A stretch of 55,880 bases of DNA, taken from positions 1-55,880 of the IMG/VR virus record IMGVR_UViG_3300035182_000298; one strand, given 5' to 3'. Made by a program: the position numbers and the translations under genes. The notes beneath the pieces are model-generated. The model was not told the DNA's origin. It saw only the letters and a list, made by a program, of their open reading frames with translations, and did not search any database. This document shows positions 710 to 15,122 of the stretch, piece by piece (position 1 is the stretch's first letter; each line of letters starts with the position of its first letter). This stretch comes from a virus (lineage: Duplodnaviria > Caudoviricetes).

Positions 710-1083
710 TATTCAATTAATTTAATTGTTTGTAATTCACCAGTTTTAATAGCAGCTTCTAATTCCATCCAATAATTAATAATGTTACCACCACCCAATA
801 CCAATATTGTTTTGTATCCACGTTTTTTTGTACCCATTTGTTTAATTGATTTGATTCTCATTTTGTAATCAGACCAACCAGAAGGTAATTTGATAGATTC
901 TGTAAATCCAGGAGCAGTATACACGTATACATAACTACCATTTATACCAGAGCCAAGACCTAATACTATATCTTCTTTTATTTTATAAGTGACATTATTA
1001 CTAGCTGTAATGCTGTCTAATCTTTCTCCTTGAGCTATTGCATTATTGGCAATAACAATTAAAATAAATAACAACTTTTTCAT
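709..1083 (-). CDS. putative secreted protein with signal peptide
   Basis: N-terminus MKKLLFILIVIANNAIA-Q is a Bacteroidota-type Sec signal with Q at +1; 124 aa. Confidence 0.7.
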   Translation of the reverse strand: MKKLLFILIVIANNAIAQGERLDSITASNNVTYKIKEDIVLGLGSGINGSYVYVYTAPGFTESIKLPSGWSDYKMRIKSIKQMGTKKRGYKTILVLGGGNIINYWMELEAAIKTGELQTIKLIE

Positions 1084-1095
1084 TTGACTAAATTT

Positions 1096-1118
1096 AAAAA
1101 CCCCTAGTTTCCTAGGGG
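1096..1118 (-). terminator. intrinsic terminator after the VWA gene
   Basis: CCCCTAG-N4-CTAGGGG hairpin followed by a T5 tract on the minus strand. Confidence 0.7.
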
Positions 1119-1125
1119 CTTATGT

Positions 1126-2916: not shown

Positions 2917-3149
2917 GATTGTAGTTCTTTTAACTTTTGATTAAATTCGTTTTGCATATGCTCAATATCATATACTTTTTTGTCAGTTTCATCTTTATAA
3001 TAACAAATAGATACTTCAATAGTGTTTTGTTTTGATAAAGATGTTTGTTGTTGTATTGCTATTGCAATCTTACCAAGATTTTCAGCAATGTCTGGAAATA
3101 CTTGCTCAATAAGTTTTCTTCCCATCAATGTTTCATGAAGTTCTGCCAT
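2913..3149 (-). CDS. hypothetical protein
   Basis: 78 aa ORF with ATGA overlap into the VWA gene. Confidence 0.65.
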   Translation of the reverse strand: MAELHETLMGRKLIEQVFPDIAENLGKIAIAIQQQTSLSKQNTIEVSICYYKDETDKKVYDIEHMQNEFNQKLKELQS

Positions 3150-3203
3150 CGTTTTTTCTCTATTTAATTTTTATAATAAGATTAGCTTCTAACTATTTCA
3201 CAT

Positions 3204-3240
3204 AAAAAAAGTAGCAGCTGACCTAAATCAACTGCTACTT
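3204..3240 (-). terminator. intrinsic terminator after the ATPase gene
   Basis: GTAGCAG(C/T)TGA stem, 6-nt loop and T7 tract on the minus strand. Confidence 0.75.
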
Positions 3241-3261
3241 CACTTCTACAATTTACTTTGA

Positions 3262-3756
3262 TTAGTTAGCTGCTATAATAGATTTAACTTTAGTGCGTTC
3301 TGACACACCAGAAGCATCATCAAATAAAGGCATAATAACTTGCATTAATGCACCTACAGTATCAAAACCATCTTTGATAAGATTAGCTGCAAGCAGTGTA
3401 TGACGCACTGACACTACATTGCTAAGCTCTTGCTCTTTGAATTGATCACGAATTGTCTTAGATACTTTAACAATAGCTTTTGCTATCTTTTCGCTAACAC
3501 CAGTACGCACCATCAAAATGTTTGTTTCTGACATCTCAGATGGATAGCTTAATTCCACAGGAAAGAAGCGATCTAATAACGCACGATCAATTTGAGTGGT
3601 ACCACTATATTCTGCACCTAGGTTGGCGGTAGCAAAAAACACACACTTCTCATTGATAGTAATATTACGTACTGCATCACCACCAGCAATATCTACAGGA
3701 AGATACCTGCGTTTATCAAGACAAGGAAACAATATATTAGTAGCACTTAGTGGGGC
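3262..3756 (-). CDS. MoxR/CbbQ-type AAA+ ATPase, exon 2
   Basis: APLSATNILFPCLD...FFATANLGAEYSGTTQIDRALLDRF (sensor 1 and arginine finger), then VSVRHTL (sensor 2). Joins exon 1 in frame as DELNR^APLS. Confidence 0.9.
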   Translation of the reverse strand, partial: APLSATNILFPCLDKRRYLPVDIAGGDAVRNITINEKCVFFATANLGAEYSGTTQIDRALLDRFFPVELSYPSEMSETNILMVRTGVSEKIAKAIVKVSKTIRDQFKEQELSNVVSVRHTLLAANLIKDGFDTVGALMQVIMPLFDDASGVSERTKVKSIIAAN

Positions 3757-4097
3757 CAATTTGTTATCATAGAAGCTCTTTATCTTCTATTTCTGCATAT
3801 TACTGTGCAGTTCAGACTATATCATCACCAAAGTCAAATATTTTGAAAGTAACAGACACCAATGGATTACCATCTTTATCTCTTTCTATGACTATGGGCA
3901 GGACGCTCGTGTTAGCATTACCATCCTCAACATTACTTGTTAGGACTCGGCTATTAGTCGTTGAACCTTCAAAAGTGTTACCACTTAAGCTTGGCTGCTG
4001 ATTGTCCTCTGAGCCTTCAGTAGGATTTTCCAGCAATTCATCCTGTTTTACAATCGCTTCCCCCTTCTTAAACATATAAATAAGAATATTTTTGTTA
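3757..4097 (-). mobile_element. group I self-splicing intron (341 nt, IA-like, no homing endonuclease)
   Basis: 5' exon ends in U and the intron ends in G. P1: exon AAUCGU pairs with IGS GCGAUU (4057-4052), with U.G at the splice site. Core motifs: P AAUUGCUGGAAA (4038-4027), Q AAUCAGCAG (4003-3995), R UUCAACGACUA (3965-3955), S AUGAUAUAGUC (3825-3815). P3 is CAGGAUG/CGUCCUG and P7 is GACUA/UAGUC. Confidence 0.93.
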
Positions 4098-4865
4098 ACG
4101 ATTTAATTCATCAAGAAGGACAATACCTTCACGTTGTATGTGACCCACAAATGGAGCATAATCAAAGTCTGAGTGACCTTCTTTGTTTAACCTGTGTACA
4201 CCTAACAATGCAGACTGAGCATCTTGCACAGTACCCATATCCTGTATACTCAAAGGTTTTTCCATAGCGCGTGCAATGTGACTTACAAGCTCTGTTTTAC
4301 CTGATCCAGTAGGTCCTATAAGCAAACTATTTTCACCTCGTATAACATTACGAATTAAAAGATACCACATATCAGCGTCAATATAAAATCCAGTGTCTTG
4401 TTCACTAGGACAAGGATACATACGCATAATGCGATCACGCAGTGTACCACTTTCGTTTTCAACAAACGCTTTGCATTTAGCTTCAATATCGATCTGATAA
4501 CCCATCTCTATCCATTTAGTAGCATATTCAATAGCTATATCACGCTTAATTATGTTGGATGCAATCATCCATTCAAATGCATAATTTACATCTTCATTAG
4601 TTGGACAAGCATCGCCTTTAATACTACCATACAAATTGTCTTCGTGCATCACAGCACGAGGTGTACCCATTATTTTACATACTAAATCACCCCAGCTAAT
4701 ATCACTCACTGCAAATATTGTCCCAATGGGGAATTTTGTCAAAACTTTAGAATCACCCACAAATGTAGTAGTAGCTAAATCTACAGCAACAGGATTGTTA
4801 GCTTGATTCTTAACGAATTCAATAGTAAACTGTGTTCCCTTAAGGGTTGTTTGAATAAGATACAT
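4098..4865 (-). CDS. MoxR/CbbQ-type AAA+ ATPase, exon 1 (spliced product 420 aa)
   Basis: Walker A GPTGSGKT and Walker B IVLLDELNR, followed immediately by a TAA that is the first three bases of the intron. Confidence 0.9.
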
Positions 4866-4867
4866 AC

Positions 4868-5035
4868 TTACTTTTTAAATTTTGGTTTAAGATACTCAAT
4901 AAGATACTTAGCGTAGCTGACTAGCAACACTTGTTTGTCAAACACAAATTGCTCTTTTTCTTGAGCTAATGCTTTATCATACTCATTCTCGAGCCTGTTA
5001 AAGTCTTCCTTATTGAAAGATTTTGTATCAGTCAT
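4868..5035 (-). CDS. small hypothetical protein (55 aa)
   Basis: Read by hand: MTDTKSFNKEDFNRLENEYDKALAQEKEQFVFDKQVLLVSYAKYLIEYLKPKFKK. Fills the gap between neighbouring genes. Confidence 0.7.
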   Translation of the reverse strand: MTDTKSFNKEDFNRLENEYDKALAQEKEQFVFDKQVLLVSYAKYLIEYLKPKFKK

Positions 5036-5051
5036 AAACTGCTATTTGTTT

Positions 5052-5486
5052 TTATTTATCAGATCCTTCTGAATATTTCCAATGTATATGTACTGCAAAT
5101 GCAGACAATACTCCTGCAATGGCAGTTGCTACCCACCAATTTCTACTTTTGCGCACAGATGCGTGTTTTTTAGCTGCTGCTACTTGTTGGTAAAGATTTT
5201 CACTAGACATACTATCGTTGTAGTTACGCTCCTTTAGAAGTTCACTTTGCATGTATGTAGTGTTTCTATCTTTAGCAACCAACATTTCAGATTGATTCTT
5301 TAAGTCAGCACGTAAGGTTATAACTTCAATGCGAATTGAATCACACTCCTGAAGATCCTCTAACATATATTTCATTAGATACTTTGGAGTGTATACCAAA
5401 GAATCTTTATTTGTTTTCGTACCGCTTTGTGAGAATGCGGTTGTAATACTGAGAAGAGTAATTAGAAATAGGAGTGATTTTTTCAT
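5052..5486 (-). CDS. envelope protein: signal peptide, coiled coil and C-terminal TM segment
   Basis: MKKSLLFLITLLSITTAFS-Q signal; C-terminal WWVATAIAGVLSAFAVHIHW. Confidence 0.7.
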   Translation of the reverse strand: MKKSLLFLITLLSITTAFSQSGTKTNKDSLVYTPKYLMKYMLEDLQECDSIRIEVITLRADLKNQSEMLVAKDRNTTYMQSELLKERNYNDSMSSENLYQQVAAAKKHASVRKSRNWWVATAIAGVLSAFAVHIHWKYSEGSDK

Positions 5487-5754
5487 TTTTATTAATGGTT
5501 TTAGTAATAATTTTTATAGGTGTTAATTTAAGTTGATTATTTTCAGACTCAATCTCAATAACGTGGTTAATAAGTTGGTCTTTTTCTTGGATCATGCCGC
5601 TCATCTTTTCATTGAGTGACTCAATGGTAGCAGATTGAAATTCAGTCTGATTAATTAATTGTTTTTGATACTTGGCAAGATCGCTATATTCTAGGTATAT
5701 GAATATACAGAACGCTAGCATAATTGTTAGTAAGATAGATTGTAATACTTTCAT
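5407..5754 (-). CDS. membrane-anchored coiled-coil protein (spanin-like architecture)
   Basis: N-terminal TM segment then a heptad-rich region; overlaps the next gene by 80 nt. Confidence 0.65.
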   Translation of the reverse strand: MKVLQSILLTIMLAFCIFIYLEYSDLAKYQKQLINQTEFQSATIESLNEKMSGMIQEKDQLINHVIEIESENNQLKLTPIKIITKTINKNEKITPISNYSSQYYNRILTKRYENK

Positions 5755-5823
5755 GGTTTTACTTCTTTTTTATAGTTAATAATAAATTCAACAAATTCAC
5801 GGAGTTTGAACCTATCTGAAAAC

Positions 5824-6009
5824 TCATAGTACTTTCCAATGATCATCTATAGCCTTTTCTGATTCTATGCTAATAAGACAGAAATCTGTATTGCTATCAG
5901 ATAGTTCATACTCATAATAATAATAGCCAGTGGTATCCCCTGATTCTTCTGGAGACACCACTATTTTTGTAAAACCTAATTTTTCAAGGTCTAGTTGTGT
6001 AATTTTCAT
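5824..6009 (-). CDS. hypothetical protein, possibly frameshifted near its 3' end
   Basis: 61 aa ORF. A plausible continuation in the +1 frame ends at 5759. Confidence 0.6.
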   Translation of the reverse strand: MKITQLDLEKLGFTKIVVSPEESGDTTGYYYYEYELSDSNTDFCLISIESEKAIDDHWKVL

Positions 6010-6596
6010 CGTATTTCAAATCCTCCACATTCGCGTAAGAAATTAACAAAGTCTTGTAAACAAGTCAATCCACAACAGTGGGATGTGTTATACATAAAAC
6101 CATCCACTTCAAATACACCATCTTTAACAAATATTTCGGGATATAAAAATAGCTCTAATTTATTTGATAGTATAGGTTCTACACTAACATTAGACAGACT
6201 ACCTGATTCTGTTATTGTTTGTTGTGTATACCATCCTACATTCAAACCAATACTATTCCATCCTTCAAACTTTACAGCAATATAATCATCAATAAAATTA
6301 GCAAGTATTGTGCATTCTTGTTGAGTCTTCAACCCAGCTCCAGAATTTACTTGAATATTATCAATAAAATCTACTGGTAAGGATAAATTATACATAGTAG
6401 CAGATTCCAAGATTACCTGTGCAATAGGACGCCAACTCCACACATTAGCTCTAAAGTAATAACCAAGGTTTTCTTGCTCAAACTCTGCCATGCTTGTCCT
6501 ATAATCATTTTTTTGCACTCTAGTGCTATTATCCCATTCTATTTCTGGTTTTACACCCTTAATCATAGGGTTTAAACCGTAGATATCCATGCCCAT
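6006..6596 (-). CDS. phage hypothetical protein (MGMDIY family)
   Basis: MGMDIYG...YFRANVWSWRPI...FVNFLRECGGFEIR; overlaps neighbours in operon fashion. Confidence 0.75.
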   Translation of the reverse strand: MGMDIYGLNPMIKGVKPEIEWDNSTRVQKNDYRTSMAEFEQENLGYYFRANVWSWRPIAQVILESATMYNLSLPVDFIDNIQVNSGAGLKTQQECTILANFIDDYIAVKFEGWNSIGLNVGWYTQQTITESGSLSNVSVEPILSNKLELFLYPEIFVKDGVFEVDGFMYNTSHCCGLTCLQDFVNFLRECGGFEIR

Positions 6597-6973
6597 TATT
6601 TACCAAAGTCTTTTTTAAGTTTGTTAAGTAGGTCTTTGAGTTTCTCACCTTCTGTTGTATTATTAATGAAATCTTTAAGACGTTCAGCTTCAATATCAGT
6701 ATCACCAAAAATATTCTTAATTTCATCCATTATTGCATTAGCATCAATGGCTGATTTTAGATTATCATCAATAGTTTTTAAATTGCTATCAATCATACTA
6801 CGTAGCATAGTTAAACCAGCGATTGAAGCGGCTGGACTACCTGTTACTTTAATTGTCTGAGTTACAGGATATCCTTCGGGATTAAACTCAATAGCAAGTA
6901 ATACTAAAGAGTTGTTTGAGTCTTTAATGACTTTATCAATATGTTCAAAAATTTCTTCTAAGATAAGTTTCAT
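6596..6973 (-). CDS. hypothetical protein
   Basis: 125 aa ORF with start/stop overlaps on both sides. Confidence 0.7.
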   Translation of the reverse strand: MKLILEEIFEHIDKVIKDSNNSLVLLAIEFNPEGYPVTQTIKVTGSPAASIAGLTMLRSMIDSNLKTIDDNLKSAIDANAIMDEIKNIFGDTDIEAERLKDFINNTTEGEKLKDLLNKLKKDFGK

Positions 6974-7269
6974 GATTCTAAAGATTGTTTAATATTTGGT
7001 TCTGCTTCTTCTATCATCTCAACTATATGAGAGAGTTTGTCTACAATGCTGTTTATTGTTTTGTAATAGGTGCTTTCACGAATCTGTTCAATTTCTTGAT
7101 CACCAATTGGAATAAAAACAACAGGTTGAACAGTAAATTCAGTGTAATCACTCATATCCAAGCGTTCAGTACGCACTCGAGAATCTAAACGGTTGTCTAA
7201 ATCCTCGAGGTGCGTTTTGAACTGATAGTAGACACACGATATTTCAGTGTTGTCTAATGATTTAATCAT
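6970..7269 (-). CDS. hypothetical protein
   Basis: 99 aa ORF with ATGA overlaps. Confidence 0.7.
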   Translation of the reverse strand: MIKSLDNTEISCVYYQFKTHLEDLDNRLDSRVRTERLDMSDYTEFTVQPVVFIPIGDQEIEQIRESTYYKTINSIVDKLSHIVEMIEEAEPNIKQSLES

Positions 7270-7751
7270 AGGTCAATTGTTTCTTCATTTAAATTATAAA
7301 AATTTAAAGATAGTAATTTATGATTAATCCAAAGATCAATGATATCAAGTGTGGTAATTTTACATTCTTTCAATGTGGGTAGATTGCTGTACTTACCATC
7401 TTTAAAATAACTAAGCTTGATGTGCGGGAAAATAACACCAAGTAGCTTGTTAGAATCACCATACACACGCTCATACTTAAATTGGTTAAGCGCATTGATA
7501 GCACGAAGATGATCATTCTTAATCCTAAAAATAACTTGTTGAGTCATGGATTGGGTTTGTTCTTCTTGAAATGCATCCATACCATACATCAAACGACGGT
7601 ACATTGATTTTTGAATTGTGTTCATTGTAAAGTACTTACGTTGAACATTAATGCTAATTTGTTCATCCTGCTCATAAGAAATGAAACTAGATTTACCATT
7701 AGCGTAATTAATTGCGATGCCAGTTTTAGTAGCTGTGATTGTTTTATTCAT
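7266..7751 (-). CDS. hypothetical protein
   Basis: 161 aa ORF in the early operon. Confidence 0.7.
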   Translation of the reverse strand: MNKTITATKTGIAINYANGKSSFISYEQDEQISINVQRKYFTMNTIQKSMYRRLMYGMDAFQEEQTQSMTQQVIFRIKNDHLRAINALNQFKYERVYGDSNKLLGVIFPHIKLSYFKDGKYSNLPTLKECKITTLDIIDLWINHKLLSLNFYNLNEETIDL

Positions 7752-7780
7752 ATCAGTTAGTGTTTTTTAATGTTATAATA

Positions 7781-8083
7781 TCAGTAATAGGCGTTTTCAA
7801 CAGAGAAAAGTATAATAGGGAGGTCCCAATTTTCAAACATTAATACATATTCTCCATTCATGGTGCCATGATTGATCAGAACAGATTGTTTAGTTACAGT
7901 ACATGCTAGTTCCTCTAGTTTATCAAGTGAATCAGCCATTAATGTGACAGATTTACCCATATAATTAAAATGGGCAATAAACTTAAAAATGTATGGTTCA
8001 GGAACTTCGCGATACGCTGCATTAATTTCTTCGTGATAAAATTCTTTTATTTTGCTCATGTGTTGTTTTTTGGATACTCGCAC
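7781..8083 (-). CDS. hypothetical protein (true start probably MSKIKE)
   Basis: ORF in the early operon. Confidence 0.6.
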   Translation of the reverse strand: MRVSKKQHMSKIKEFYHEEINAAYREVPEPYIFKFIAHFNYMGKSVTLMADSLDKLEELACTVTKQSVLINHGTMNGEYVLMFENWDLPIILFSVENAYY

Positions 8084-8382
8084 TGCGTAAGTGAACCTGA
8101 TTTGAGCTGTATTGTATGCTCTTTACCTGTAGATAGGTTCTTATGCACTAGAGTATAGTTCTTACTATTATAGTTAGGTACTGTTAATGGTACATCAAAG
8201 TAGACGTATTTTACTATTTCATCCATTGATGTGTATATTTTGTATTTGACTCGACGGGTAATAAGATCTTCAATACGCAGTATATACTGCATTTCAATGG
8301 TTGTTGACCCTCTTAATTGCTTTTTAAATAAGCGTTTTAGAGAACATAATTTAAGATTTACAAGTAATCGCTTGATTTTCAT
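8056..8382 (-). CDS. hypothetical protein (start uncertain)
   Basis: ORF in the early operon; the internal Met at MQYILRIED is an alternative start. Confidence 0.5.
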   Translation of the reverse strand: MKIKRLLVNLKLCSLKRLFKKQLRGSTTIEMQYILRIEDLITRRVKYKIYTSMDEIVKYVYFDVPLTVPNYNSKNYTLVHKNLSTGKEHTIQLKSGSLTQCEYPKNNT

Positions 8383-8401
8383 ATATATTTTGCATTAAAG
8401 T

Positions 8402-8432
8402 AAAAGGGGGGCTAGGTTATACACCCAGCCCC
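8402..8432 (-). terminator. putative intrinsic terminator
   Basis: GGGGCTGGGT/ACCTAGCCCC hairpin followed by TTTT on the minus strand. Confidence 0.55.
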
Positions 8433-8462
8433 ACAGTTACTACCCTATGAACACTAACTAAT

Positions 8463-8843
8463 TTATAACTTTTTAAGTATATCGCGTAGTTTATCTAAAG
8501 GATCTTGAGTTACACATATCTCAATTAATCCTCTAACAATTAAATAATCCCGCAAATCCGCACTAGCATTGTTTAATATATTTTCAATAAAAGTAGACTT
8601 AGTTGAACTAGGTGTTTGATCATTAATTAGTTTAAGTTCGTTATTTAATGTAGTTTCATAACCTTTTGTAAAGCCACATGCTGAGAACACATCATCTGCA
8701 TCGTGGTCAAACGTACGACTTGATGTACGATCTGTTGTATCACTGTTTTCTTGGTTAGGTATATTACGAATAGCCCAACTAACTTCTTCTTGAGTGAGTG
8801 AATTATTTGCACTCAAGATTACTTCCATAATTTTTTGTTTCAT
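8463..8843 (-). CDS. hypothetical protein
   Basis: ATG at 8843 (MKQKIMEV) follows an A-rich leader and is preferred over the track's TTG start at 8873. Confidence 0.65.
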   Translation of the reverse strand: MKQKIMEVILSANNSLTQEEVSWAIRNIPNQENSDTTDRTSSRTFDHDADDVFSACGFTKGYETTLNNELKLINDQTPSSTKSTFIENILNNASADLRDYLIVRGLIEICVTQDPLDKLRDILKKL

Positions 8844-8877
8844 AGACTTTGTTTTTTGATTTTTTGTATTCAATTAG

Positions 8878-8973
8878 AGGTCAAGGTTAGAATCGAACTA
8901 ACTTATTTGCCGCGTAATGTCCCGCGGCATTTATCCATATTGTACATCTACTTTTGTAAAGATACACTTGACC
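8878..8973 (-). ncRNA. tRNA-like RNA with canonical acceptor stem and T-arm but non-canonical D and anticodon arms
   Basis: Acceptor GGUCAAG/CUUGACC; T-arm GUUAG-UUCGAUU-CUAAC; central hairpin UGCCGCG-GGACAUUA-CGCGGCA with an 8-nt loop; no encoded CCA; intergenic. Confidence 0.7.
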
Positions 8974-8990
8974 AACCAATTGCTTACTTG

Positions 8991-9317
8991 TTATTTTACT
9001 CTAAAGTTTATTACAAGTTCAGTATCACTAACAGACACATTTTCAATCAAATTCATACTGAATCGTAGCGTACTATTGGACATATTAACAACAGGTAAAG
9101 TTGTTCTGTCTTTTTCGTATGACTTTTGACTAGGTCTAGTACCAGCTTTAAAGTAACGATAATAAGCTTGATTGTAAGTAATATTTAATGTTTCTGCTAC
9201 GCTAGCAAGAGCCACTTTTTGATTTACTCCAGTTTTCATTAGCTCTAACACCGTCTTTTTAAACTCGATGATTTTTCTTGCAGATAATTTTTTGATGCTC
9301 ATTTTAAATGATTTCAA
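8991..9317 (-). CDS. basic hypothetical protein, possible HTH
   Basis: ALASVAETLNITYNQAYYRYF has a helix-turn-helix-like pattern. Confidence 0.55.
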   Translation of the reverse strand: MKSFKMSIKKLSARKIIEFKKTVLELMKTGVNQKVALASVAETLNITYNQAYYRYFKAGTRPSQKSYEKDRTTLPVVNMSNSTLRFSMNLIENVSVSDTELVINFRVK

Positions 9318-9467
9318 GGTTTACACTAAAAGATTTGGGTATTAGTAGTCAAGCTATTAGCTTTAAACTAAAAATACATGGTTATTATGTCAATTATGTC
9401 AAAATTATTTTGTAACTTAACTTTGTTAATTGTACAATTTGTTTAAGGGATATAGATTTTTTTGGTG

Positions 9468-9665
9468 CTACCTTTGTTTGTTGATGATAATTGTATGTTT
9501 CAAGATACTATCTAACTTAAAAATATCTGTTTGATAGAGAGCTATAGAATCTTTTAATTCTTTAACTCTGGTTGAATGCATCTCTTTTATCTTTTGCTTA
9601 TCATAATAAAAGAATAATAAAACAACAAGTATTATTAAAAGAGGGATTGGTTTGACATTTACCAT
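9468..9665 (-). CDS. small membrane protein
   Basis: N-terminal TM segment IPLLIILVVLLFFYY followed by a short coiled coil. Confidence 0.6.
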   Translation of the reverse strand: MVNVKPIPLLIILVVLLFFYYDKQKIKEMHSTRVKELKDSIALYQTDIFKLDSILKHTIIINKQR

Positions 9666-10129
9666 GATGATTGATAGTAATAATCACCACTAAACTTACC
9701 ATCTGAATCCATTTCTTTTTCTAAGAACTCAATAGTATCTTTAGTATCTTGATAATAATATTTATCATATTCAGTACTTCCAAAAAAGAAACCTGATGTA
9801 GTTGGTAGTATATCATTAGGAGCACTAGCAGCATCAAACTCCATTACTTTTTTACAAGCATCATATAGATTCTTTAAGTCTTCTACTGAAACATAAGTTG
9901 ACCTACCATCATCAACACTACTTTGACAATTTTGAACAAACCAATTATGGATATGATTGGCTTTTCTCCAATACATCACTTGTTCTTCAACATATGATAT
10001 TCTGTCTACTTTAATTTGATCAAATACTTTTCCATTTCTTTTAACAGTAACTTCAAACTGTTTTTCTTTGGGTATGTGTTCCCATTGTTTTACATATGTC
10101 TTTTTAGACAAATACATATCTAGTCCCAT
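9659..10129 (-). CDS. phage hypothetical protein (MGLDMYL family)
   Basis: MGLDMYL...YWRKANHIHNWF...LPTTSGFFFGSTEYD...YYYQSSW, a pattern I recognise from many phage proteins. Confidence 0.8.
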   Translation of the reverse strand: MGLDMYLSKKTYVKQWEHIPKEKQFEVTVKRNGKVFDQIKVDRISYVEEQVMYWRKANHIHNWFVQNCQSSVDDGRSTYVSVEDLKNLYDACKKVMEFDAASAPNDILPTTSGFFFGSTEYDKYYYQDTKDTIEFLEKEMDSDGKFSGDYYYQSSW

Positions 10130-10132
10130 AAT

Positions 10133-10510
10133 TTAATATTCCATTAGTTGCATGAATGATATTACATACTTTTCTCTTATCTTAGTAACAATAATCTCAC
10201 TACCATAATAGTGACTAGGTAATTCTTGTAACACTACATTACAAAATTCCTGAATTGGATCTATTACATCTAGGTTATTCTGTCGTGCTCCAACTAGGTT
10301 ATTATGCGCCATACTTAGAATATAATCTAAATCTGAATCGAATCCATTTTCTTTAGCCTCTTCGCTAAGGTACTCCTTGCCACTGCTTCCGTTTAAGTCT
10401 TGATCGAAAGAGAAGTCTTTAAACTTCTCTACGATGTTTTCTAAGGTAACTACTATTACTTCTAAGGTGCTGTTTCTATTCGTACTCATCTTTGACAATA
10501 TTTTCTGCAA
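10133..10510 (-). CDS. hypothetical protein
   Basis: ORF in the early operon. Confidence 0.6.
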   Translation of the reverse strand: MQKILSKMSTNRNSTLEVIVVTLENIVEKFKDFSFDQDLNGSSGKEYLSEEAKENGFDSDLDYILSMAHNNLVGARQNNLDVIDPIQEFCNVVLQELPSHYYGSEIIVTKIREKYVISFMQLMEY

Positions 10511-10790
10511 GAACTCTTGTTTGCATAAGTTTTAACTTGAGCTTTATTATTTCTAGCTCTAATTCTTCAGTGGTCATATCAGTTTTCTCACGTTGATCTC
10601 TAACAGCTTCAAATACCATCTCAGTCATATCGTCTTTTCTCATGTCAAGAAACTCACTTGTTTTTGCTCCATCAGTATAATTGAAGCAATAGCCTGATCC
10701 ATCTTCAAATTGGATACTGGTTACATGTTTACCTTGCTGTGTTAACACAACAATGGCTGCCACTAGGGACTTTGGTGTCATTTTTTTCAT
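10476..10790 (-). CDS. hypothetical protein
   Basis: 104 aa ORF containing IQFEDGSGYCFNY. Confidence 0.65.
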   Translation of the reverse strand: MKKMTPKSLVAAIVVLTQQGKHVTSIQFEDGSGYCFNYTDGAKTSEFLDMRKDDMTEMVFEAVRDQREKTDMTTEELELEIIKLKLKLMQTRVLAENIVKDEYE

Positions 10791-10805
10791 ATGTTTATAA
10801 GGTTT

Positions 10806-11030
10806 TTATAATTTCTCATCAATGTATTGGAAGCAGTTCACGATCATGTACAGTGTACCCAAGGATGATACTATATAAACAAATACCATTGGACTACAAG
10901 CTACATCATTTAGTGTGGTATCAAAAACAAAAGAAAAAAAGGCAGTTAATAACCAATTTAAACAAGTTACTAATATTATAATAGCTGTTGCTACTATTGG
11001 ATAGAGTAGTGTTTTTTGAATTGTATTCAT
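10806..11030 (-). CDS. small two-TM membrane protein
   Basis: Two hydrophobic segments in 74 aa. Confidence 0.6.
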   Translation of the reverse strand: MNTIQKTLLYPIVATAIIILVTCLNWLLTAFFSFVFDTTLNDVACSPMVFVYIVSSLGTLYMIVNCFQYIDEKL

Positions 11031-11057
11031 GTTATTTGTTGGGTTAGTGAGAGTTAG

Positions 11058-11270
11058 TTACTGATTGTCATCAATGATAAGGCTATCTAATGCTGTGTCC
11101 CCTAATGGAATAACTCCAACGGGTCTGTTATTATCAGATATAATATATCCTTGATCTGTGCATATCATTTGATACTCACAAGGATCTTTAGGATACACTA
11201 TTGGTGAGAGTAATAATCCAGCAATAGCACCCATTGTTAACATTATTATAATGTGTAAGACTTTATTCAT
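11058..11270 (-). CDS. small membrane-anchored protein
   Basis: N-terminal hydrophobic segment; C-terminus LDSLIIDDNQ. Confidence 0.6.
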   Translation of the reverse strand: MNKVLHIIIMLTMGAIAGLLLSPIVYPKDPCEYQMICTDQGYIISDNNRPVGVIPLGDTALDSLIIDDNQ

Positions 11271-11284
11271 TTTGTTTTAGTATT

Positions 11285-11494
11285 TTAAATGGTTAACTCA
11301 TCTTCATCAGCTAAATGGCTGTCATTAAACTCATTAGCTATATCACCTTTAAGTTCAAACACTCCTTTATTATGCTTGTTACTATTGTTCACAATCATTT
11401 TAAGAACATTGCGTAGGTGGTGAATATCCATAGACATTATATCTATGAATGTACCATCTTTTTGTTTCCAATAAACTATTTCTTTATTGTTCAT
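11285..11494 (-). CDS. hypothetical protein
   Basis: Contains WKQKDGTFIDIMSMDIHHLRNVLKMI. Confidence 0.65.
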   Translation of the reverse strand: MNNKEIVYWKQKDGTFIDIMSMDIHHLRNVLKMIVNNSNKHNKGVFELKGDIANEFNDSHLADEDELTI

Positions 11495-11933
11495 TTGATT
11501 GATTTTCTAAACCATTAAGCTCACATTCGTTTTTTAAATCATTAAAAGAATTATACCATTCTAACTGTTCTGGAGTTAGTTTTGATTTTAAATCTTTTAT
11601 TAATTCAAGTTGTTCTTCTTTCCACCATTTGTATTCAAGATGTGCTTGATAATTATCAGATACATCTTCAATATCTTCAGATGTTAATCTTGAAGGATGA
11701 TTGTTTTCTATCTCTTGTTCAAGCTGTTGAATATAAGAAATAGGATAAGATTCAAAAGTAATTTCTTTTTCAGCTGTAGAATATCCTCCACCAATTAGTG
11801 CAAGTTTTTCTCTAACCATAAATAAACATGGTCTAATATTACCTAACCCTAATGGAGACTCTGTTTCTAAATGATATTTAGTTAACAGTCTTTCTAGTTG
11901 TTCTAATTCTAAGTTTGTCATTTTATTTTGCAT
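11484..11933 (-). CDS. hypothetical protein, first gene of the long early operon
   Basis: 149 aa ORF starting about 65 nt downstream of the twister ribozyme. Confidence 0.65.
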   Translation of the reverse strand: MQNKMTNLELEQLERLLTKYHLETESPLGLGNIRPCLFMVREKLALIGGGYSTAEKEITFESYPISYIQQLEQEIENNHPSRLTSEDIEDVSDNYQAHLEYKWWKEEQLELIKDLKSKLTPEQLEWYNSFNDLKNECELNGLENQSNEQ

Positions 11934-11999
11934 ATTATTACAACTTGCCAGTTGCTTGTTATTGGTTATTCATTCACTAAAGTAGAATGATTCACTTAA

Positions 12000-12140
12000 T
12001 ATTATCCCTCTGCACTCAGTTGTAATAACTAAAATCTTTCATTTAGTATCAGAGATCACCCATCAATCAACTATGTTTAGATTGACACTGTGTATTACAA
12101 CTGCTCACCCTTGGGAAGTGAGAATGGTGCATTAATAATA
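12000..12140 (-). ncRNA. twister self-cleaving ribozyme (P1 type with a long P5 insertion)
   Basis: UAUUAU-UAA-UGCA-CC-AUU-CUCAC-UUCCCAAGG-GUGAG-[P5 CAGUUGUAAUA...UAUUACAACUG]-AG-UGCA-GAGGG-AUAAUA. P1, P2 and P4 pair, as do both pseudoknots (CC/GG and CCC/GGG). Predicted cleavage U^A at 12134/12133. Confidence 0.88.
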
Positions 12141-12346
12141 GACATTATTGTTTAGTCTATTGATTTGTAATCAGGAAAAAATTAAGATTTCTCGCCTGAT
12201 CTATAGGATACTACCCTACTTATATAAGATTACATATAATAGAAATATGATCCTATCATTAGTTCAAGGATATTGATTAGTGTGACTTAGAGTTGATGGA
12301 TTGATGTGTAAAGTAATAATTAAGTTATCTAGTGCCGCGTTTTTGA

Positions 12347-12362
12347 TGTTTCATGTGGAACA
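12347..12362. promoter_or_regulatory. parS-like site
   Basis: TGTTTCATGTGGAACA has one mismatch to the bacterial parS consensus TGTTTCACGTGNAACA; intergenic. Confidence 0.4.
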
Positions 12363-12699
12363 AGTAACTATAATGAATGAGTGTGAGAGGTATATACTCC
12401 TCACATTCAATCACTTACACATTTATTCTACTACTTGATTAGTAGAGATTGCAGTAATTATATGCATCTTAGAATAATGCAAATGTTATTGCAGAAACAA
12501 CGCTTATCATTGGTGGTAAGTGCTAATAATTGCGGGAAAACACTACATCTTAATTTTGTAATATATTGATTCTGTAACAATTTGTACTATTCTAATACGA
12601 ATTTACCCGCACAATACTGTTAAGAATGCGTTGTTGAAGTGTGGCGCAACGCGCGAACAACTGTTGCGAAGCAACGCCTTATTTTGAAGCGACATAAAG

Positions 12700-12737
12700 C
12701 TGTAATGAGCAAGGGGTATTTTCCTTGCTCATTACAG
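12700..12737 (-). terminator. perfect 15-bp inverted repeat after gene 12747-13277 (terminator or processing stem)
   Basis: CTGTAATGAGCAAGG-N8-CCTTGCTCATTACAG; the U-tract is weak. Confidence 0.65.
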
Positions 12738-12746
12738 AGTGTCTGC

Positions 12747-13277
12747 TTACTTGCGTGCTCGTGCTCGTGGTTTTGAGACTGCTCTTGCAGGTGTCGCAGG
12801 TGGCGTAGCAGTTGGTCCTGCAAGATTAGCGGGTGTACTTGCTTTAGCAGGTGCGTTGCTGTCTTTGGACGTATCACGTTTTTTGAAGCCTGCTTTAAGT
12901 GCACTTGCGAAGTTTTCGTTCGCACGCTTGCTCGAAGACTCAAAATCATCGTACGCACGATAGCGTCCCAATAGATAGTCGCCACTATCAGCGGTTTTAC
13001 CGTCTAACCACGTGATTTGACCTGATTTGAATGGTGGTGGGACTTCTACTTCAAGTTCATCACCTACTTCATTAACCAAGATTTGGTAGCGTGGTACAAA
13101 CCAAAGAGGTGTGCCTGTATCAGCGTCCTCAATAAGTTTGTACTTACCTGTGGAGTCAAGCTCTGCCTCTTGTTCCACGTTGTCGCAATATTCATCAAGT
13201 TGCTCTTGCGACCCAATGACTTCATACGTGTAACTGCGACCGTTAACACGTAAAAACTTTACTGATAATGTTTCCAT
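12747..13277 (-). CDS. putative immediate-early protein with a basic Ala/Pro/Lys/Arg-rich C-terminal tail
   Basis: 176 aa and visibly more GC-rich than its neighbours; tail APAKASTPANLAGPTATPPATPARAVSKPRARARK; flanked by a hairpin motif and a terminator. Confidence 0.75.
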   Translation of the reverse strand: METLSVKFLRVNGRSYTYEVIGSQEQLDEYCDNVEQEAELDSTGKYKLIEDADTGTPLWFVPRYQILVNEVGDELEVEVPPPFKSGQITWLDGKTADSGDYLLGRYRAYDDFESSSKRANENFASALKAGFKKRDTSKDSNAPAKASTPANLAGPTATPPATPARAVSKPRARARK

Positions 13278-13306
13278 AAGTTTCTTTTTTAAGATTAGAT
13301 AATAAC

Positions 13307-13350
13307 AAGTAACGTAAGAAATTGAGAATGAACGAAGTGAATTCTTAATT
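13307..13350 (-). promoter_or_regulatory. bipartite hairpin motif, copy 1 (candidate early/virion-RNAP promoter)
   Basis: Plus strand AAGTAACGTAAG-N9-ATGAACGAAGTGAAT; the hairpin extends over 13320-13350; about 30 nt upstream of the ATG at 13277. Confidence 0.55.
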
Positions 13351-13359
13351 GATTGGTGT

Positions 13360-13387
13360 AAAAGGGTGCAGAAAACTCTGCTACCCT
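13360..13387 (-). terminator. putative terminator after small ORF 13409-13519
   Basis: AGGGTAGCAGA-GTTT-TCTGCACCCT then TTT on the minus strand. Confidence 0.5.
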
Positions 13388-13408
13388 ACAAGGCTGTGTG
13401 GCGAACAT

Positions 13409-13519
13409 CTATCGAAGTTCTTTCAGATATTCTAAACGCTGTGCATAGCAATCAGCAATGGATACACCACTGATTACTATAGCAATATCTGTAAACCACA
13501 TATATACAATATCATACAT
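13409..13519 (-). CDS. 36-aa peptide, putative first early gene
   Basis: Read by hand: MYDIVYMWFTDIAIVISGVSIADCYAQRLEYLKELR. Lies between motif copy 2 and a terminator-like hairpin. Confidence 0.4.
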   Translation of the reverse strand: MYDIVYMWFTDIAIVISGVSIADCYAQRLEYLKELR

Positions 13520-13532
13520 AGTGACTGACAAT

Positions 13533-13570
13533 AAGTAACGTAAGTAATCCCAGATGAACGAAGTGAATCT
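13533..13570 (-). promoter_or_regulatory. bipartite hairpin motif, copy 2
   Basis: AAGTAACGTAAG-N9-ATGAACGAAGTGAAT with identical boxes and spacing but a different spacer sequence; outer stem AGAT/ATCT. Confidence 0.55.
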
Positions 13571-13749
13571 ATGTCTCAAAGAATTCTTTTTTTGTTTAGT
13601 TTTCTGATTTTCAAAACTTATCTACAAAGTGACGGGGGTACCAGGTAGACATCATCGAGGCGGGGATTGTTACACTAGGTACCAATCACATCCTCTAATA
13701 TTAAAAACATCATATAGTGGGATAAAAATTTCTAGTATTGATAATCAAA

Positions 13750-13782
13750 TTTGGAAAATTTAAATTTTACTTTATATATTTG
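13750..13782 (+). promoter_or_regulatory. Bacteroidota-type housekeeping sigma promoter for the rightward module
   Basis: TTTG (13750-13753), N21, TATATTTG (13775-13782) matches the -33 TTTG / -7 TAnnTTTG consensus, about 45 nt before the first rightward ATG. Confidence 0.65.
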
Positions 13783-13826
13783 TATTTCTATTACGTTAGT
13801 ATAACCAACAAAAATTATTAAATAAT

Positions 13827-14063
13827 ATGTCAGAAAAACAAGAACGTCCATCTAGAGAGCAGATGGTTCAGTGGTACAAGGATGAGATTGAGTTAGCTTC
13901 TTTTCGTGCTGATTTGTCTAAGTTACAAAGGGATGCCGCTGTATATGAAGCAGAGCGTATTAATGCAATTGGTGCTATTGCACAGATGACACAACCTGAG
14001 CAGGAGGATGCTGATCAAACTAAAGTAAAAAAATTAAAGAAAGAAGTTCTAAATGCAGATTAA
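13827..14063 (+). CDS. hypothetical coiled-coil protein
   Basis: First rightward ORF, 78 aa. Confidence 0.7.
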   Translation: MSEKQERPSREQMVQWYKDEIELASFRADLSKLQRDAAVYEAERINAIGAIAQMTQPEQEDADQTKVKKLKKEVLNAD

Positions 14064-14502
14064 CAGAGTAGTGAAGAAGGTGAGGTTAGACTCAATGTTA
14101 AGTGCTGTGAAGTATCAGCTTATTACGGAGTTGGTATTTTTACGTAAGCAGTTATTGATTGATTCTGATCTCACTTATCTTTCATTGCTTACCATTATGG
14201 GACCTATGCCACTAAAGGACTTTTGTACAAAAGCTGTAGTATATGTATATGGACAAGAAATTCTTCATGATGTACTCAAGCATCCAGTAAAAGTACAGAC
14301 TGTAAGAAACAGATTGGGTTTATTACAGAAGCGGGGATTTATTATTAAACAGGGTAAGGGTAAGAAGATGCTTATGCTTAACCCTGCAATTCCTGTAGTC
14401 AAGCAGGGGAATGTATTGTTAGAATATAATTTCATATACGTTGAGACCAAAGAAAGCCAAGGAGTCAATAGCTCAGATCGCGAAAGAGTTGCAACTTTCT
14501 GA
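14053..14502 (+). CDS. putative winged-HTH DNA-binding protein
   Basis: QTVRNRLGLLQKRGFIIKQGKGKKMLMLNP resembles a wHTH recognition helix plus wing. Confidence 0.6.
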   Translation: MQINRVVKKVRLDSMLSAVKYQLITELVFLRKQLLIDSDLTYLSLLTIMGPMPLKDFCTKAVVYVYGQEILHDVLKHPVKVQTVRNRLGLLQKRGFIIKQGKGKKMLMLNPAIPVVKQGNVLLEYNFIYVETKESQGVNSSDRERVATF

Positions 14503-14827
14503 ACAGGAAGTTAAATCTGTGTTGGATATCTACTGGGATAAGATAAGAAAAACACTCAGCTCATTAGAACACAATAAAGTATTTCTTAAAGGATTGGGTA
14601 CATTCTACATCAAGACATGGTCATTAGAAAAGAGGCTCAAGATTAATGAAAATAAGGTAAGTAATTGTATGGAGAATCCATCTGCTTCAGGTTTGCAGAT
14701 GATGAATGATATATTTAAAGAGAACATAAAGCTCAACGCAGTCAAGCAGCGCGATATGGTTCAGAATCGAATAAAGTCTAGAAAAAGAGATGAAAGACGT
14801 AATCAAGATTTGGAAGGAGAAGGGTAA
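14441..14827 (+). CDS. HU/IHF-like DNA-binding protein
   Basis: IAKELQLSEQEVKSVLDIYWDKIRKTL...KVFLKGLGTFYIK carries the HU-family signature. Confidence 0.8.
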   Translation: MRPKKAKESIAQIAKELQLSEQEVKSVLDIYWDKIRKTLSSLEHNKVFLKGLGTFYIKTWSLEKRLKINENKVSNCMENPSASGLQMMNDIFKENIKLNAVKQRDMVQNRIKSRKRDERRNQDLEGEG

Positions 14828-15122
14828 GATTCTAGAAGGTATAAAGAATAATATCTTCAAAAACGCTGATGTCGAGAACATTGCAGCAGAACGTATGAGT
14901 ATATGCGAGACTTGCCCCTACTTAGATAAGAGTGGTTCACATTGTATGGTACCAGGCACACAACCTTGTTGTGGGTTATGTGGTTGTTCTCTTGCACTTA
15001 AGACAAGAGCATTATCAGCAGCTTGTGATATACACAAGTGGATGGGTATTGTGAGTCATCAAGAGCAAATCATTATTGATCAACATCTCTCTCAAGAAAA
15101 TACAAATGAAACTACTATTTGA
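14790..15122 (+). CDS. Cys-rich, probably Zn-binding protein
   Basis: RMSICETCP...CCGLCGCSLALKTR...CDIHKW. Confidence 0.75.
   Translation: MKDVIKIWKEKGKILEGIKNNIFKNADVENIAAERMSICETCPYLDKSGSHCMVPGTQPCCGLCGCSLALKTRALSAACDIHKWMGIVSHQEQIIIDQHLSQENTNETTI

What the first reader, a model, noticed from the sequence alone, without database searches (positions are those of the whole stretch)
13307..13570. Two bipartite motifs with a template-strand C-GAA-G DNA hairpin: candidate promoters for a crAss-like virion RNA polymerase
Seen: AAGTAACGTAAG-N9-ATGAACGAAGTGAAT occurs twice (13307-13342, 13533-13568) with identical boxes and spacing but different spacers. The second box folds as AT-GA-AC-[GAA]-GT-GA-AT: a C(GAA)G triloop with tandem sheared G.A pairs, extended by different outer stems in the two copies. 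This fold is favoured in ssDNA and only on the plus strand, which is the template for the leftward genes. Each copy heads a unit of motif, ORF and terminator-like hairpin. Known: coliphage N4 virion RNAP recognises template-strand hairpins with C-GNA-G loops, and crAss-like phages such as phi14:2 package an RNAP that transcribes early genes. Inference: these are hairpin promoters for that enzyme; I know of no defined promoter for it. A ssDNA replication or packaging signal is the alternative. The RNAP gene is not in this window.
Basis: partly seen in the sequence, partly recalled or inferred. Interest (0 to 1): 0.85.

Follow-up and report, generated by a model that had tools for sequence, protein, structure and literature searches.

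The report
Hairpin-plus-box early promoter candidates
Two small leftward genes of an uncultured crAss-like phage each begin with the same two-part DNA signal, whose tiny hairpin folds on the copied strand and is kept by compensating mutations in relatives, which makes it a testable candidate for the still-undescribed start signal of the RNA polymerase these phages inject.

Summary
Two exact copies of AAGTAACGTAAG-N9-ATGAACGAAGTGAAT lie at 13307-13342 and 13533-13568. Each heads a unit of motif, ORF and terminator.

The second box belongs to a hairpin family, outer stem / G.A-A.G / 2 bp / GNA loop. I found 32 copies in the window and 8 related contigs, all on the template strand of the leftward genes. 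All 128 stem positions examined were paired, and all 4 pairs show double changes.

A diverged relative (L162) carries five such cassettes with the same ACGTTACTT box and compensatory stem changes. Two complete relatives have only four copies each, in about 1 kb.

The core heptamer matches coliphage N4's three virion-RNAP promoters. This lineage instead encodes a crAss-type DFDID polymerase.

Best reading: these are phage-specific early promoters, most likely read by the injected polymerase. The reading enzyme and the start sites were not tested. phi14:2 lacks the motif.

My literature searches found no description of such a promoter. This scan has noted the same kind of element on other DNA, in 32 notes from at least 28 genomes.

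The parts
13552..13570 (+). Hairpin of copy 2 on the template strand: AGAT / G.A A.G / AC - GAA - GT / G.A A.G / ATCT. The 15-mer box is 13554-13568 and the loop is 13560-13562.
   Evidence: Sequence; covariance-model match 20.5 bits, E 0.0007; family covariation.
13533..13544 (+). Box A of copy 2 (AAGTAACGTAAG). The part shared with L162 is AAGTAACGT at 13533-13541, which reads ACGTTACTT on the sense strand.
   Evidence: ACGTTACTT lies 12-13 nt after the 15-mer in 7 of 7 promoters of this subtype.
13409..13519 (-). 36-aa ORF, a small hydrophobic protein. Its ATG is 42 nt from the loop centre of copy 2.
   Evidence: A homolog sits at the same place in L162. Weaker relatives occur in L003, L007, L013 and L021.
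13360..13387 (-). Terminator-like hairpin plus UUUU that closes the copy-2 unit.
   Evidence: RNA fold -14.4 kcal/mol, z -3.07. A 32-nt stretch (13356-13387) is 100% identical in L003.
13325..13345 (+). Hairpin of copy 1 on the template strand: AGAAT / G.A A.G / AC - GAA - GT / G.A A.G / ATTCT. The 15-mer box is 13328-13342 and the loop is 13334-13336.
   Evidence: Sequence; covariance-model match 25.8 bits, E 1e-5.
13307..13318 (+). Box A of copy 1.
12747..13277 (-). 176-aa ORF with no family match and a basic Pro/Ala-rich C-terminal tail. Its ATG is 58 nt from the loop centre of copy 1.
   Evidence: Three homolog clusters in the protein database. A 54% identical homolog in L162 stands behind the same promoter type.
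12700..12737 (-). 15-bp hairpin that closes the copy-1 unit. Its tail is CUUUAUGU, a weak U-tract.
   Evidence: -27.6 kcal/mol, z -8.0.

Best explanation
The two motifs are two copies of a bipartite, phage-specific transcription start signal. Each drives one small, terminator-insulated leftward gene cassette.

The upstream half is a DNA mini-hairpin that forms only on the + strand, the template of these genes. It has a 4-5 bp variable outer stem, a tandem G.A/A.G step, two Watson-Crick pairs and a GNA triloop closed by C-G. The downstream half is a fixed box (sense ACGTTACTT) 12-13 nt further on. It is held at a constant distance from the hairpin but a variable distance from the ATG, so it acts on DNA and not on the mRNA.

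Inferred mechanism: after injection the hairpin extrudes or is exposed as single-stranded DNA. It is bound by the virion-delivered crAss-type two-barrel RNA polymerase, which needs single-stranded template. That enzyme then starts a few 'pre-early' transcripts.

Shown: the motif, its strand, the covariation, its position and the cassette structure. Inferred: promoter function, the reading enzyme and the start site. Two start-site models remain open:
- N4-like ruler: start near 13324 and 13550.
- Box as a -10-like element: start near 13299-13302 and 13525-13528.
For: 1. Non-chance repeat.

2. Family and strand. GARCGNAGYGA occurs 26 times in 8 of 37 sources (386,366 bases), 26 on + and 0 on -. 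A covariance model raises this to 32 copies in 9 sources, all on +.

3. Covariation. The R/Y pair was left free in the search and is Watson-Crick in 26 of 26 copies. The two outer pairs were never constrained and are paired in 26 of 26, with 3 and 4 pair types. On all 32 copies, 128 of 128 cells are paired, 4 of 4 pairs show double changes, and 0 of 500 shuffles reach the score. GA...GA is invariant.

4. Orthologous test. L162 holds the same 36-aa and 176-aa genes (54% identity). It has five cassettes of terminator, hairpin, N12-13, ACGTTACTT and ATG. The inner stems are GC/GC in four and GT/AC in one, against AC/GT in the window.

5. Position. 30 of 32 cores lie outside ORFs of 80 aa or more, while 55% of the flanking sequence is in such ORFs. 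Of the 29 copies with a downstream ORF, the loop centre to ATG distance is 38-42 nt in 10 and 57-63 nt in 7.

6. Rarity. The complete relatives G001 (124 kb) and G002 (125 kb) have 4 copies each, on one strand, within about 1 kb, with 0 control hits. This resembles the three N4 promoters and the P23-45 pre-early set (passages read).

7. N4. The hairpins GTTGC-GAA-GCAAC, GAAGC-GGA-GCTTC and GCTGC-GGA-GCAGC lie on the template strand before gp1, gp2 and gp15. Reviews describe the same mini-hairpin.

8. Enzyme. A 3882-aa ORF in G001 carries DFDID and aligns with phi14:2 gp66 across GSDFDID (E 8e-7). gp66 transcribes only single-stranded or denatured DNA (preprint passages).

9. No conserved sigma-70-type match.
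Against: - There is no transcript evidence. The two RNA libraries hold only contigs, and none covers 13304-13620.
- phi14:2 lacks the motif: best model hit E 0.48, and no recurrent template-strand hairpin. Its authors found no common early motif. The link to the crAss-type enzyme is therefore not general.
- Only 2-5 copies occur per genome, so most leftward genes must use another signal or read-through.
- The window is a 46% fragment without the polymerase gene.
- Standard DNA folding parameters do not favour the fold.
- The N4 5' flank (CCA A/T AA, +1C) is absent.
- GA-flanked mini-hairpin clusters also occur in unrelated complete phage genomes where I detected neither RNAP type. Some of these sit in ORF-poor AT-rich stretches. 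That would also fit a more general single-stranded DNA role.
- Relatedness inflates the shuffle statistics, and alignment A3 was fitted to the model.
Confidence: 0.55

Rival explanations
1. The motifs are promoters, but another enzyme reads them. Candidates are the host RNA polymerase, alone or with an injected or early phage factor, or a second phage polymerase not yet recognised.
For: All the position and cassette evidence fits any promoter. The units end in ordinary stem-plus-U terminators (L162). The hairpin-to-box spacing of about 20 nt resembles the -35/-10 geometry. Copy 1 overlaps a 9-of-12 sigma-70-like match. phi14:2 early transcripts lack any such motif.
Against: The conserved letters do not resemble sigma-70 consensus hexamers. 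I also compared them with the Bacteroidota motif, which I recalled and did not take from a call, and they do not resemble it either. The sigma-70-like match of copy 1 uses the non-conserved spacer and is absent from copy 2. Sigma-70-like sites are no more frequent than in shuffles. Strand-specific G.A/A.G with covarying stems points to single-stranded recognition, which is not a property of sigma-dependent promoters. No PF00940 or phrog_2166 polymerase was found in G001 or G002, whereas N4 gave a hit as positive control.
Confidence: 0.2
2. The motifs are single-strand initiation (priming) or origin signals. The mini-hairpins would resist SSB on the exposed + strand and recruit a primase, as proposed for the phage G4 complementary-strand origin and shown near RSF1010 ssiA.
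For: Mini-hairpins of this type are documented at such sites (review passages). The copies form a one-strand cluster near the point of divergent transcription. Similar clusters in unrelated phages sit in ORF-poor AT-rich DNA.
Against: Of the 29 copies with a downstream ORF, 10 have a loop-to-ATG distance of 38-42 nt. A second box lies at a fixed distance between the hairpin and the gene. A terminator precedes each of the five L162 units. Hairpin and gene move together as cassettes between near-identical strains. None of this is expected of priming sites.
Confidence: 0.1
3. The motifs are binding sites for a double-stranded-DNA regulator (an operator), or recombination sites used to exchange cassettes in the manner of integron attC hairpins. 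In either case they would not be start signals.
For: The cassette content differs between the window and L003 although the flanks are 98.6% identical. Each cassette carries one hairpin.
Against: The invariant GA/GA breaks dyad symmetry, so the two half-sites differ in duplex form. Variants with different but always complementary stems coexist in one genome (L017, L021, L026, L162). This points to intrastrand pairing. The hairpin lies upstream of the ORF and is far shorter than attC sites as I recall them. I did not search for a recombinase.
Confidence: 0.06

Closest known systems
Early promoters P1-P3 of coliphage N4 (Schitoviridae), read by the injected T7-like virion RNA polymerase gp50
   Same: Both are template-strand DNA hairpins upstream of the first genes, with a 3-nt G-N-A loop closed by C-G. 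The stem is kept as a structure while its letters vary. There are few copies per genome. The enzyme works on single-stranded but not native duplex DNA. Sources: N4 record; review passages; gp66 properties.
   Different: - A tandem G.A/A.G step is invariant here and absent from N4, whose stems have 5 Watson-Crick pairs.
- Here a second box lies about 20 nt downstream of the loop centre.
- The N4 5' flank CCA(A/T)AA and +1C are absent here.
- The lineage's polymerase is an unrelated two-barrel DFDID enzyme, and no T7-like RNAP was found.
- Dependence on supercoiling and SSB is not known here.
Virion RNA polymerase gp66 of crAss-like phage phi14:2 and its early transcription
   Same: A homologous polymerase is present in complete relatives, aligned across GSDFDID. 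The genome has the same two opposed blocks. The early block of phi14:2 is rifampicin-resistant, and gp66 needs single-stranded template.
   Different: phi14:2 has no such motif, and its authors report no common early motif. TerL is only about 25% identical to any crAss-like record. The polymerase protein is 3882 aa here against 2180 aa.
Mini-hairpin DNA d(GCGNAGC), at the G4 complementary-strand origin and near RSF1010 ssiA
   Same: The same heptamer core occurs in most relatives. The window has the ACGAAGT variant. The loop has a sheared G-A pair, and the structure resists SSB (review passages).
   Different: Those are replication priming sites. The elements here are gene-linked, bipartite and preceded by terminators.
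Pre-early promoters of Thermus phage P23-45, read by a tape-measure-fused two-barrel virion RNAP
   Same: An injected two-barrel polymerase serves only a small set of first genes and uses its own motif (passages).
   Different: The P23-45 motif is described as AT-rich. A word search of that paper for 'hairpin' found 0 occurrences.
[quoted passage not shown]
   Same: It is a precedent for a phage multisubunit-type RNAP that reads the template strand (titles and abstracts in the listing: PMC5449584, PMC9209446).
   Different: AR9 reads a short uracil-containing linear motif, not a hairpin. I saw only the listing.

Membership tests
N4-type virion-RNAP hairpin promoter | Hairpin on the template strand upstream of the first genes | tested here: met
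   All 32 copies lie on the strand that is template for the adjacent leftward ORFs. The N4 hairpins lie on the template strand before gp1, gp2 and gp15.
N4-type virion-RNAP hairpin promoter | 3-nt loop 5'-G-N-A-3' closed by a C-G pair (GC-rich heptamer) | tested here: met
   The window has C-GAA-G twice. By my reading, 27 of the 32 family copies have a GNA loop. The exceptions are ACA twice and AGA, GGC and a 4-nt GATA once each. The closing pair is C-G in 31 of 32 and T-A in one. The window's heptamer is ACGAAGT, not GCGNAGC.
N4-type virion-RNAP hairpin promoter | Stem of 5-7 Watson-Crick pairs kept as a structure | tested here: inconclusive
   The structure is kept, but two of the stem steps are invariant G.A/A.G mismatches that N4 lacks.
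N4-type virion-RNAP hairpin promoter | Conserved 5' flank with +1C, start 11 nt from the loop centre | tested here: not met
   The flank differs between the two window copies (AAATTGAG and GTAATCCC). Neither is CCA(A/T)AA. The start site itself cannot be tested here.
N4-type virion-RNAP hairpin promoter | Read by a T7-like virion RNAP of the gp50 family | tested here: not met
   No PF00940 or phrog_2166 match in the complete relatives G001 and G002. The same search does find N4, although it detects gp50 itself only weakly (E 0.007).
N4-type virion-RNAP hairpin promoter | Needs negative supercoiling and SSB for hairpin extrusion | not testable with these tools
   Biochemical property (review passages).
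Promoter of the crAss-type two-barrel virion RNAP | The lineage encodes a gp66-type DFDxD polymerase | tested here: met
   G001 56583-68231 encodes 3882 aa with DFDID at residue 2599. It aligns with gp66 across GSDFDID at E 8e-7. The gene is not in the window itself, which is a 46% fragment.
Promoter of the crAss-type two-barrel virion RNAP | Rifampicin-resistant transcripts start at the motif early in infection | not testable with these tools
   The RNA libraries hold only contigs, and none lies on 13304-13620.
Promoter of the crAss-type two-barrel virion RNAP | The motif is shared with the characterised member phi14:2 | tested here: not met
   Model search of phi14:2 bases 1-50000 gave a best E of 0.48. 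No recurrent template-strand hairpin was found. The authors also saw none.
Single-strand initiation (primase) signal | Placed at an origin and independent of gene starts | tested here: not met
   30 of 32 copies are intergenic. The distance to the ATG is 38-42 nt in 10 of 29. A fixed second box is present, and a terminator precedes each L162 unit.
Sigma-70-type host promoter | Conserved -35 and -10 hexamers 16-18 bp apart | tested here: not met
   Only copy 1 overlaps a 9-of-12 match, and that match uses the variable spacer. The site count does not exceed shuffles.
Intrinsic terminator | GC-rich RNA stem followed by a U-tract on a transcribed strand | tested here: not met
   The scan did not report the motif as terminator-like in the window. 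On the sense RNA the stem would carry tandem U.C/C.U mismatches.

The most novel reading that the evidence does not exclude
These hairpin-plus-box elements are the first defined promoters of a crAss-type two-barrel virion RNA polymerase. An enzyme unrelated to N4 gp50 would then have converged on the same template-strand C-GNA-G mini-hairpin, here stiffened by tandem sheared G.A pairs, to start a handful of pre-early genes on injected DNA.

The one-strand clusters of GA-flanked mini-hairpins in unrelated uncultured phages would then be the same kind of signal. That would make single-stranded hairpin promoters a general solution for injected polymerases.
Probability: 0.4. Interest if true: 0.85.

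Novelty: new variant of a known kind. Interest (0 to 1): 0.72.

Why it matters
crAss-like phages are among the most abundant phages known, and all package a giant RNA polymerase. The phi14:2 study found no common motif upstream of its early transcripts. My four literature searches found no later description of a promoter for this enzyme.

A short, sequence-defined candidate would make that question testable with oligonucleotides. The candidate comes with natural compensatory variants, a clear strand prediction and a second box.

If confirmed, it would show that two unrelated injected polymerases, the T7-like enzyme of N4 and the two-barrel enzyme of crAss-like phages, use the same DNA mini-hairpin. 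It would also give a marker for finding the first-expressed genes in uncultured phage genomes. Those genes are likely to serve host takeover.

Tried and rejected
- **Near-identical DNA search in the phage collection:** no match.
- **Exact bipartite pattern in viral contigs:** 0 stretches. Records near the window may be left out of that search.
- **RNA evidence:** two RNA libraries (X1, X2) hold small shares of the region. When laid, they are contigs only. X2 contigs lie on 12766-13269 and 13833-14218, and none lies on 13304-13620. No starts, ends or strand can be read. This gives nothing for or against transcription from the motifs.
- **DNA folding with standard parameters:** the two window copies fold at -1.2 and 0 kcal/mol, the + and - strands score alike, and neither beats shuffles. 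I did not take this as refutation, because GNA triloops and sheared G.A pairs are not scored.
- **phi14:2:** no motif.
- **The window's last ORF (52044-55880):**
  - No PDB sequence match and no Pfam match.
  - Only a match to a PHROG 'virion structural protein' family.
  - Its G001 ortholog is about 1608 aa without DFDxD, so I rejected it as the polymerase.
- **The 369-aa genes beside hairpin clusters in L013 and L069:** not related. The L013 protein is a metallophosphatase.
- **Relatives of the 176-aa protein:** none in the loci held and none in viral contigs.
- **Other motif-bearing complete genomes (G006-G009):** no match to the DFDID region or to PF00940. The first of those searches had no positive control.
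- **Sigma-70 scans:** not enriched.
- **Rfam on 9000-15000:** only one sub-threshold hit.
- **Supplementary files of the phi14:2 paper:** these hold the primer-extension end points and were not open to me. They could bear on the comparison.
- **Papers not held:** the Nature version (PMC12127119) and Gleghorn 2008 (PMC2639713).

Full report
**What is there.** The window is a 55,880-base IMG/VR virus record judged 46% complete. Leftward ORFs fill 1-13277 and rightward ORFs start at 13827. The rightward block holds a crAss-type large terminase, a portal, a major head protein and tail proteins. The terminase finds only crAss-like, Flavobacterium and Cellulophaga phage records. Identity is about 25% and all 116 records are below 60%. 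The phage is therefore a distant, uncultured crAss-like phage.

The pattern AAGTAACGTAAG-N9-ATGAACGAAGTGAAT occurs exactly twice, at 13307-13342 and 13533-13568 on the + strand. No shuffle gave two matches, and neither box occurs elsewhere. Both copies lie in the divergent gap. Read on the sense strand of the leftward genes, each unit is:
- hairpin box, 9 variable bases, box A, a short leader, an ORF, then a stable RNA hairpin;
- copy 2: 36-aa ORF at 13519-13409, then a hairpin plus UUUU at 13387-13360;
- copy 1: 176-aa ORF at 13277-12747, then a 15-bp hairpin at 12737-12700.

**The hairpin is a conserved, strand-specific structure.** A terminase search fetched 36 related loci. L003 is 98.6% identical to the window to the right of 13634. 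To the left it carries different small genes, and instead of the window's box it has GAGCGAAGCGA five times. That is GA-GC-GAA-GC-GA against the window's GA-AC-GAA-GT-GA.

The pattern GARCGNAGYGA occurs 26 times in 8 of the 37 sources, 26 on the + strand and none on the - strand. The R/Y positions were free in the search and are complementary in all 26. The two pairs outside the GA steps were never part of the search. They are paired in 26 of 26 copies, with three and four pair types.

A covariance model added six more copies. Among them is one whose loop-closing pair is T-A instead of C-G. Over all 32 copies, all on the + strand:
- 128 of 128 cells are paired;
- 4 of 4 pairs carry double changes;
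- no shuffle or slid register comes near.

Two cautions apply. The copies are related, and the last alignment was fitted to the model. Locus L010 holds about 1 kb left of the divergence point and has no copy. Most other loci do not reach that region.

**An orthologous test.** The 176-aa protein has three homolog clusters in the protein database. A metagenome contig, L162, encodes a 54% identical homolog. The same small 36-aa gene sits in front of it. L162 has five consecutive cassettes. Each is a stem-plus-T-run terminator, a 15-base hairpin box, 12-13 variable bases, ACGTTACTT, 13 to about 58 bases, and an ATG.

On the template strand the inner stems read GC/GC in four cassettes and GT/AC in one, against AC/GT in the window. 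The outer AT/AT (TT/AA in one cassette), the GA/GA steps and the GAA loop stay.

The box keeps its distance to the hairpin in 7 of 7 promoters of this subtype, while its distance to the ATG varies. The box is therefore a DNA-level partner of the hairpin and not a translation signal. In the larger subfamily a different box takes the same place (sense CTTCACATC, about 14-18 nt after the core).

**Position and number.**
- 30 of 32 cores lie outside ORFs of 80 aa or more, although 55% of the surrounding sequence is in such ORFs.
- Of the 29 copies with a downstream ORF, the loop centre lies 38-42 nt from the ATG in 10 and 57-63 nt in 7. One spurious case aside, none is closer than 38 nt.
- In the two complete relatives (124 and 125 kb) the pattern occurs four times each, on one strand, within about 1 kb, with no control hits. 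The model finds nothing else except one weak hit.

The signal therefore serves a handful of small cassettes near the head of the leftward block, not the whole block.

**Comparison with what is known.** I read coliphage N4's record. Perfect 5-bp hairpins with GAA or GGA loops closed by C-G lie on the template strand before gp1, gp2 and gp15. These are the three virion-RNAP promoters described in the review whose passages I read. That review describes a GC-rich heptamer centred at -11, a required loop G and A and closing pair, a sheared G:A, and activation by supercoiling and SSB.

A review of mini-hairpin DNA names GCGNAGC as an unusually stable fold. It lists the N4 promoter, the G4 origin and RSF1010 ssiA as its biological settings (passages).

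The elements here share the core and the strand logic. They differ in three ways: the invariant G.A/A.G step, the second box, and the lack of the N4 5' flank.

The enzyme also differs. No T7-like polymerase was found in the complete relatives (positive control in N4). A 3882-aa ORF carries DFDID and aligns with phi14:2 gp66 across the catalytic GSDFDID. The phi14:2 preprint reports three things (passages and section 4 read):
- gp66 transcribes single-stranded or denatured DNA but not duplex DNA;
- the block opposite the structural genes is early and largely rifampicin-resistant;
- early transcripts showed no common upstream motif.

phi14:2 itself has no such hairpins.

**Interpretation.** The data fit a compact phage-specific promoter best. 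The natural reader is the injected polymerase, because these look like first-expressed cassettes and resemble no host consensus. That last step is inference.

Two start-site models remain open. One is an N4-like ruler, about 11 nt from the loop centre. The other starts just past the box, which would explain why no ATG lies closer than 38 nt. The rival readings are another polymerase, priming signals, or operator or recombination sites. They are weighed in their own sections.

**Wider occurrence.** I estimate that about 30 would be expected by chance; that estimate is mine and comes from no call.

Of the 116 newly fetched loci, 66 hold two or more hits of a loose hairpin pattern, some of which are chance. 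Several carry covarying sets on one strand. One has seven copies at about 530-nt intervals. Another family has clusters in AT-rich, ORF-poor DNA.

Four such complete genomes show one-strand clusters: 5 to 1, 4 to 0, 7 to 0 and 5 to 0. Only two of the new loci share proteins with the window. Some are T7-like phages. I detected neither polymerase type in the four complete genomes.

**Earlier notes of this scan.** A word search returned 32 notes in at least 28 genomes. They describe GNA-triloop hairpins as candidate promoters in crAss-like phages and name the same closest known system. These are unchecked notes on other DNA. I reached the same reading from my own calls, and I did not test theirs.

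**In print.** Four literature searches found no description of a hairpin promoter for a crAss-type polymerase. A 2026 N4 paper still treats the two virion polymerases as separate cases and names no gp66 promoter in the passages I read.

Noticed in passing
window 12663-12675 (+): GTTGC-GAA-GCAAC is the only perfect 5-bp C-GNA-G hairpin in the whole window on either strand. It has the same 13 letters as the N4 hairpin before gp1. It lies on the template strand about 25 nt leftward of the 12700-12737 terminator, at the head of an ORF-poor stretch (11934 to about 12620). It may be a third promoter of a plain-stem subtype. About 1.7 such hairpins would be expected by chance (my estimate, from no call), so it is not significant on its own.
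   Followed up: partly
window 12425-13633 against L003 300-2234: The cassettes differ between near-identical strains. The flanks are 90% and 98.6% identical, but the window has 2 hairpin-headed units and L003 has 5 hairpins heading 4 different small ORFs, with another hairpin and box subtype. A 32-nt terminator piece (13356-13387) is 100% shared.
   Followed up: partly
L072, L069/L086/L122, L131, L133, L087; genomes G006-G009: One-strand clusters of GA-flanked GNA mini-hairpins with covarying stems occur in phage contigs unrelated to the window. One has 7 copies at about 530-nt intervals. Others lie in AT-rich, ORF-poor DNA. Neither RNAP type was detected in the four complete genomes.
   Followed up: partly
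window 13409-13519 (-); L162 2240-2350; L003 1998-2108; L007 733-837; L013 4647-4757; L021 3616-3735: A conserved small hydrophobic protein of about 36 aa (W-[VF]-x-D ... A-Y ... R-E) is the first or an early hairpin-headed gene in several relatives.
   Followed up: partly
G001 56583-68231 (L160 6584-18232): The DFDID polymerase of this lineage is a single 3882-aa ORF, far longer than phi14:2 gp66 (2180 aa). It has no PHROG match.
   Followed up: partly
window 12000-12140: An earlier first-reader note proposes a twister ribozyme here. A permissive Rfam search of 9000-15000 (E up to 1) found no twister family, only a sub-threshold Ocean-VII hit at 12043-12059.
   Followed up: partly
L124 1525-1583 (+): A more distant crAss-like contig (TerL 24% and portal 27% identical to the window's) has two GCGAGCGNAGCGAGC hairpins, with a GAACGTAGTTC variant between them. 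They lie in its divergent gap, on the same strand as its terminase gene.
   Followed up: partly
window 1126-2916, 3262-3759, 4095-4865 (-): The leftward block holds a CobT/vWA-like protein and two ORFs that match neighbouring parts of one AAA+ family (phrog_249). I did not examine this.
   Followed up: no
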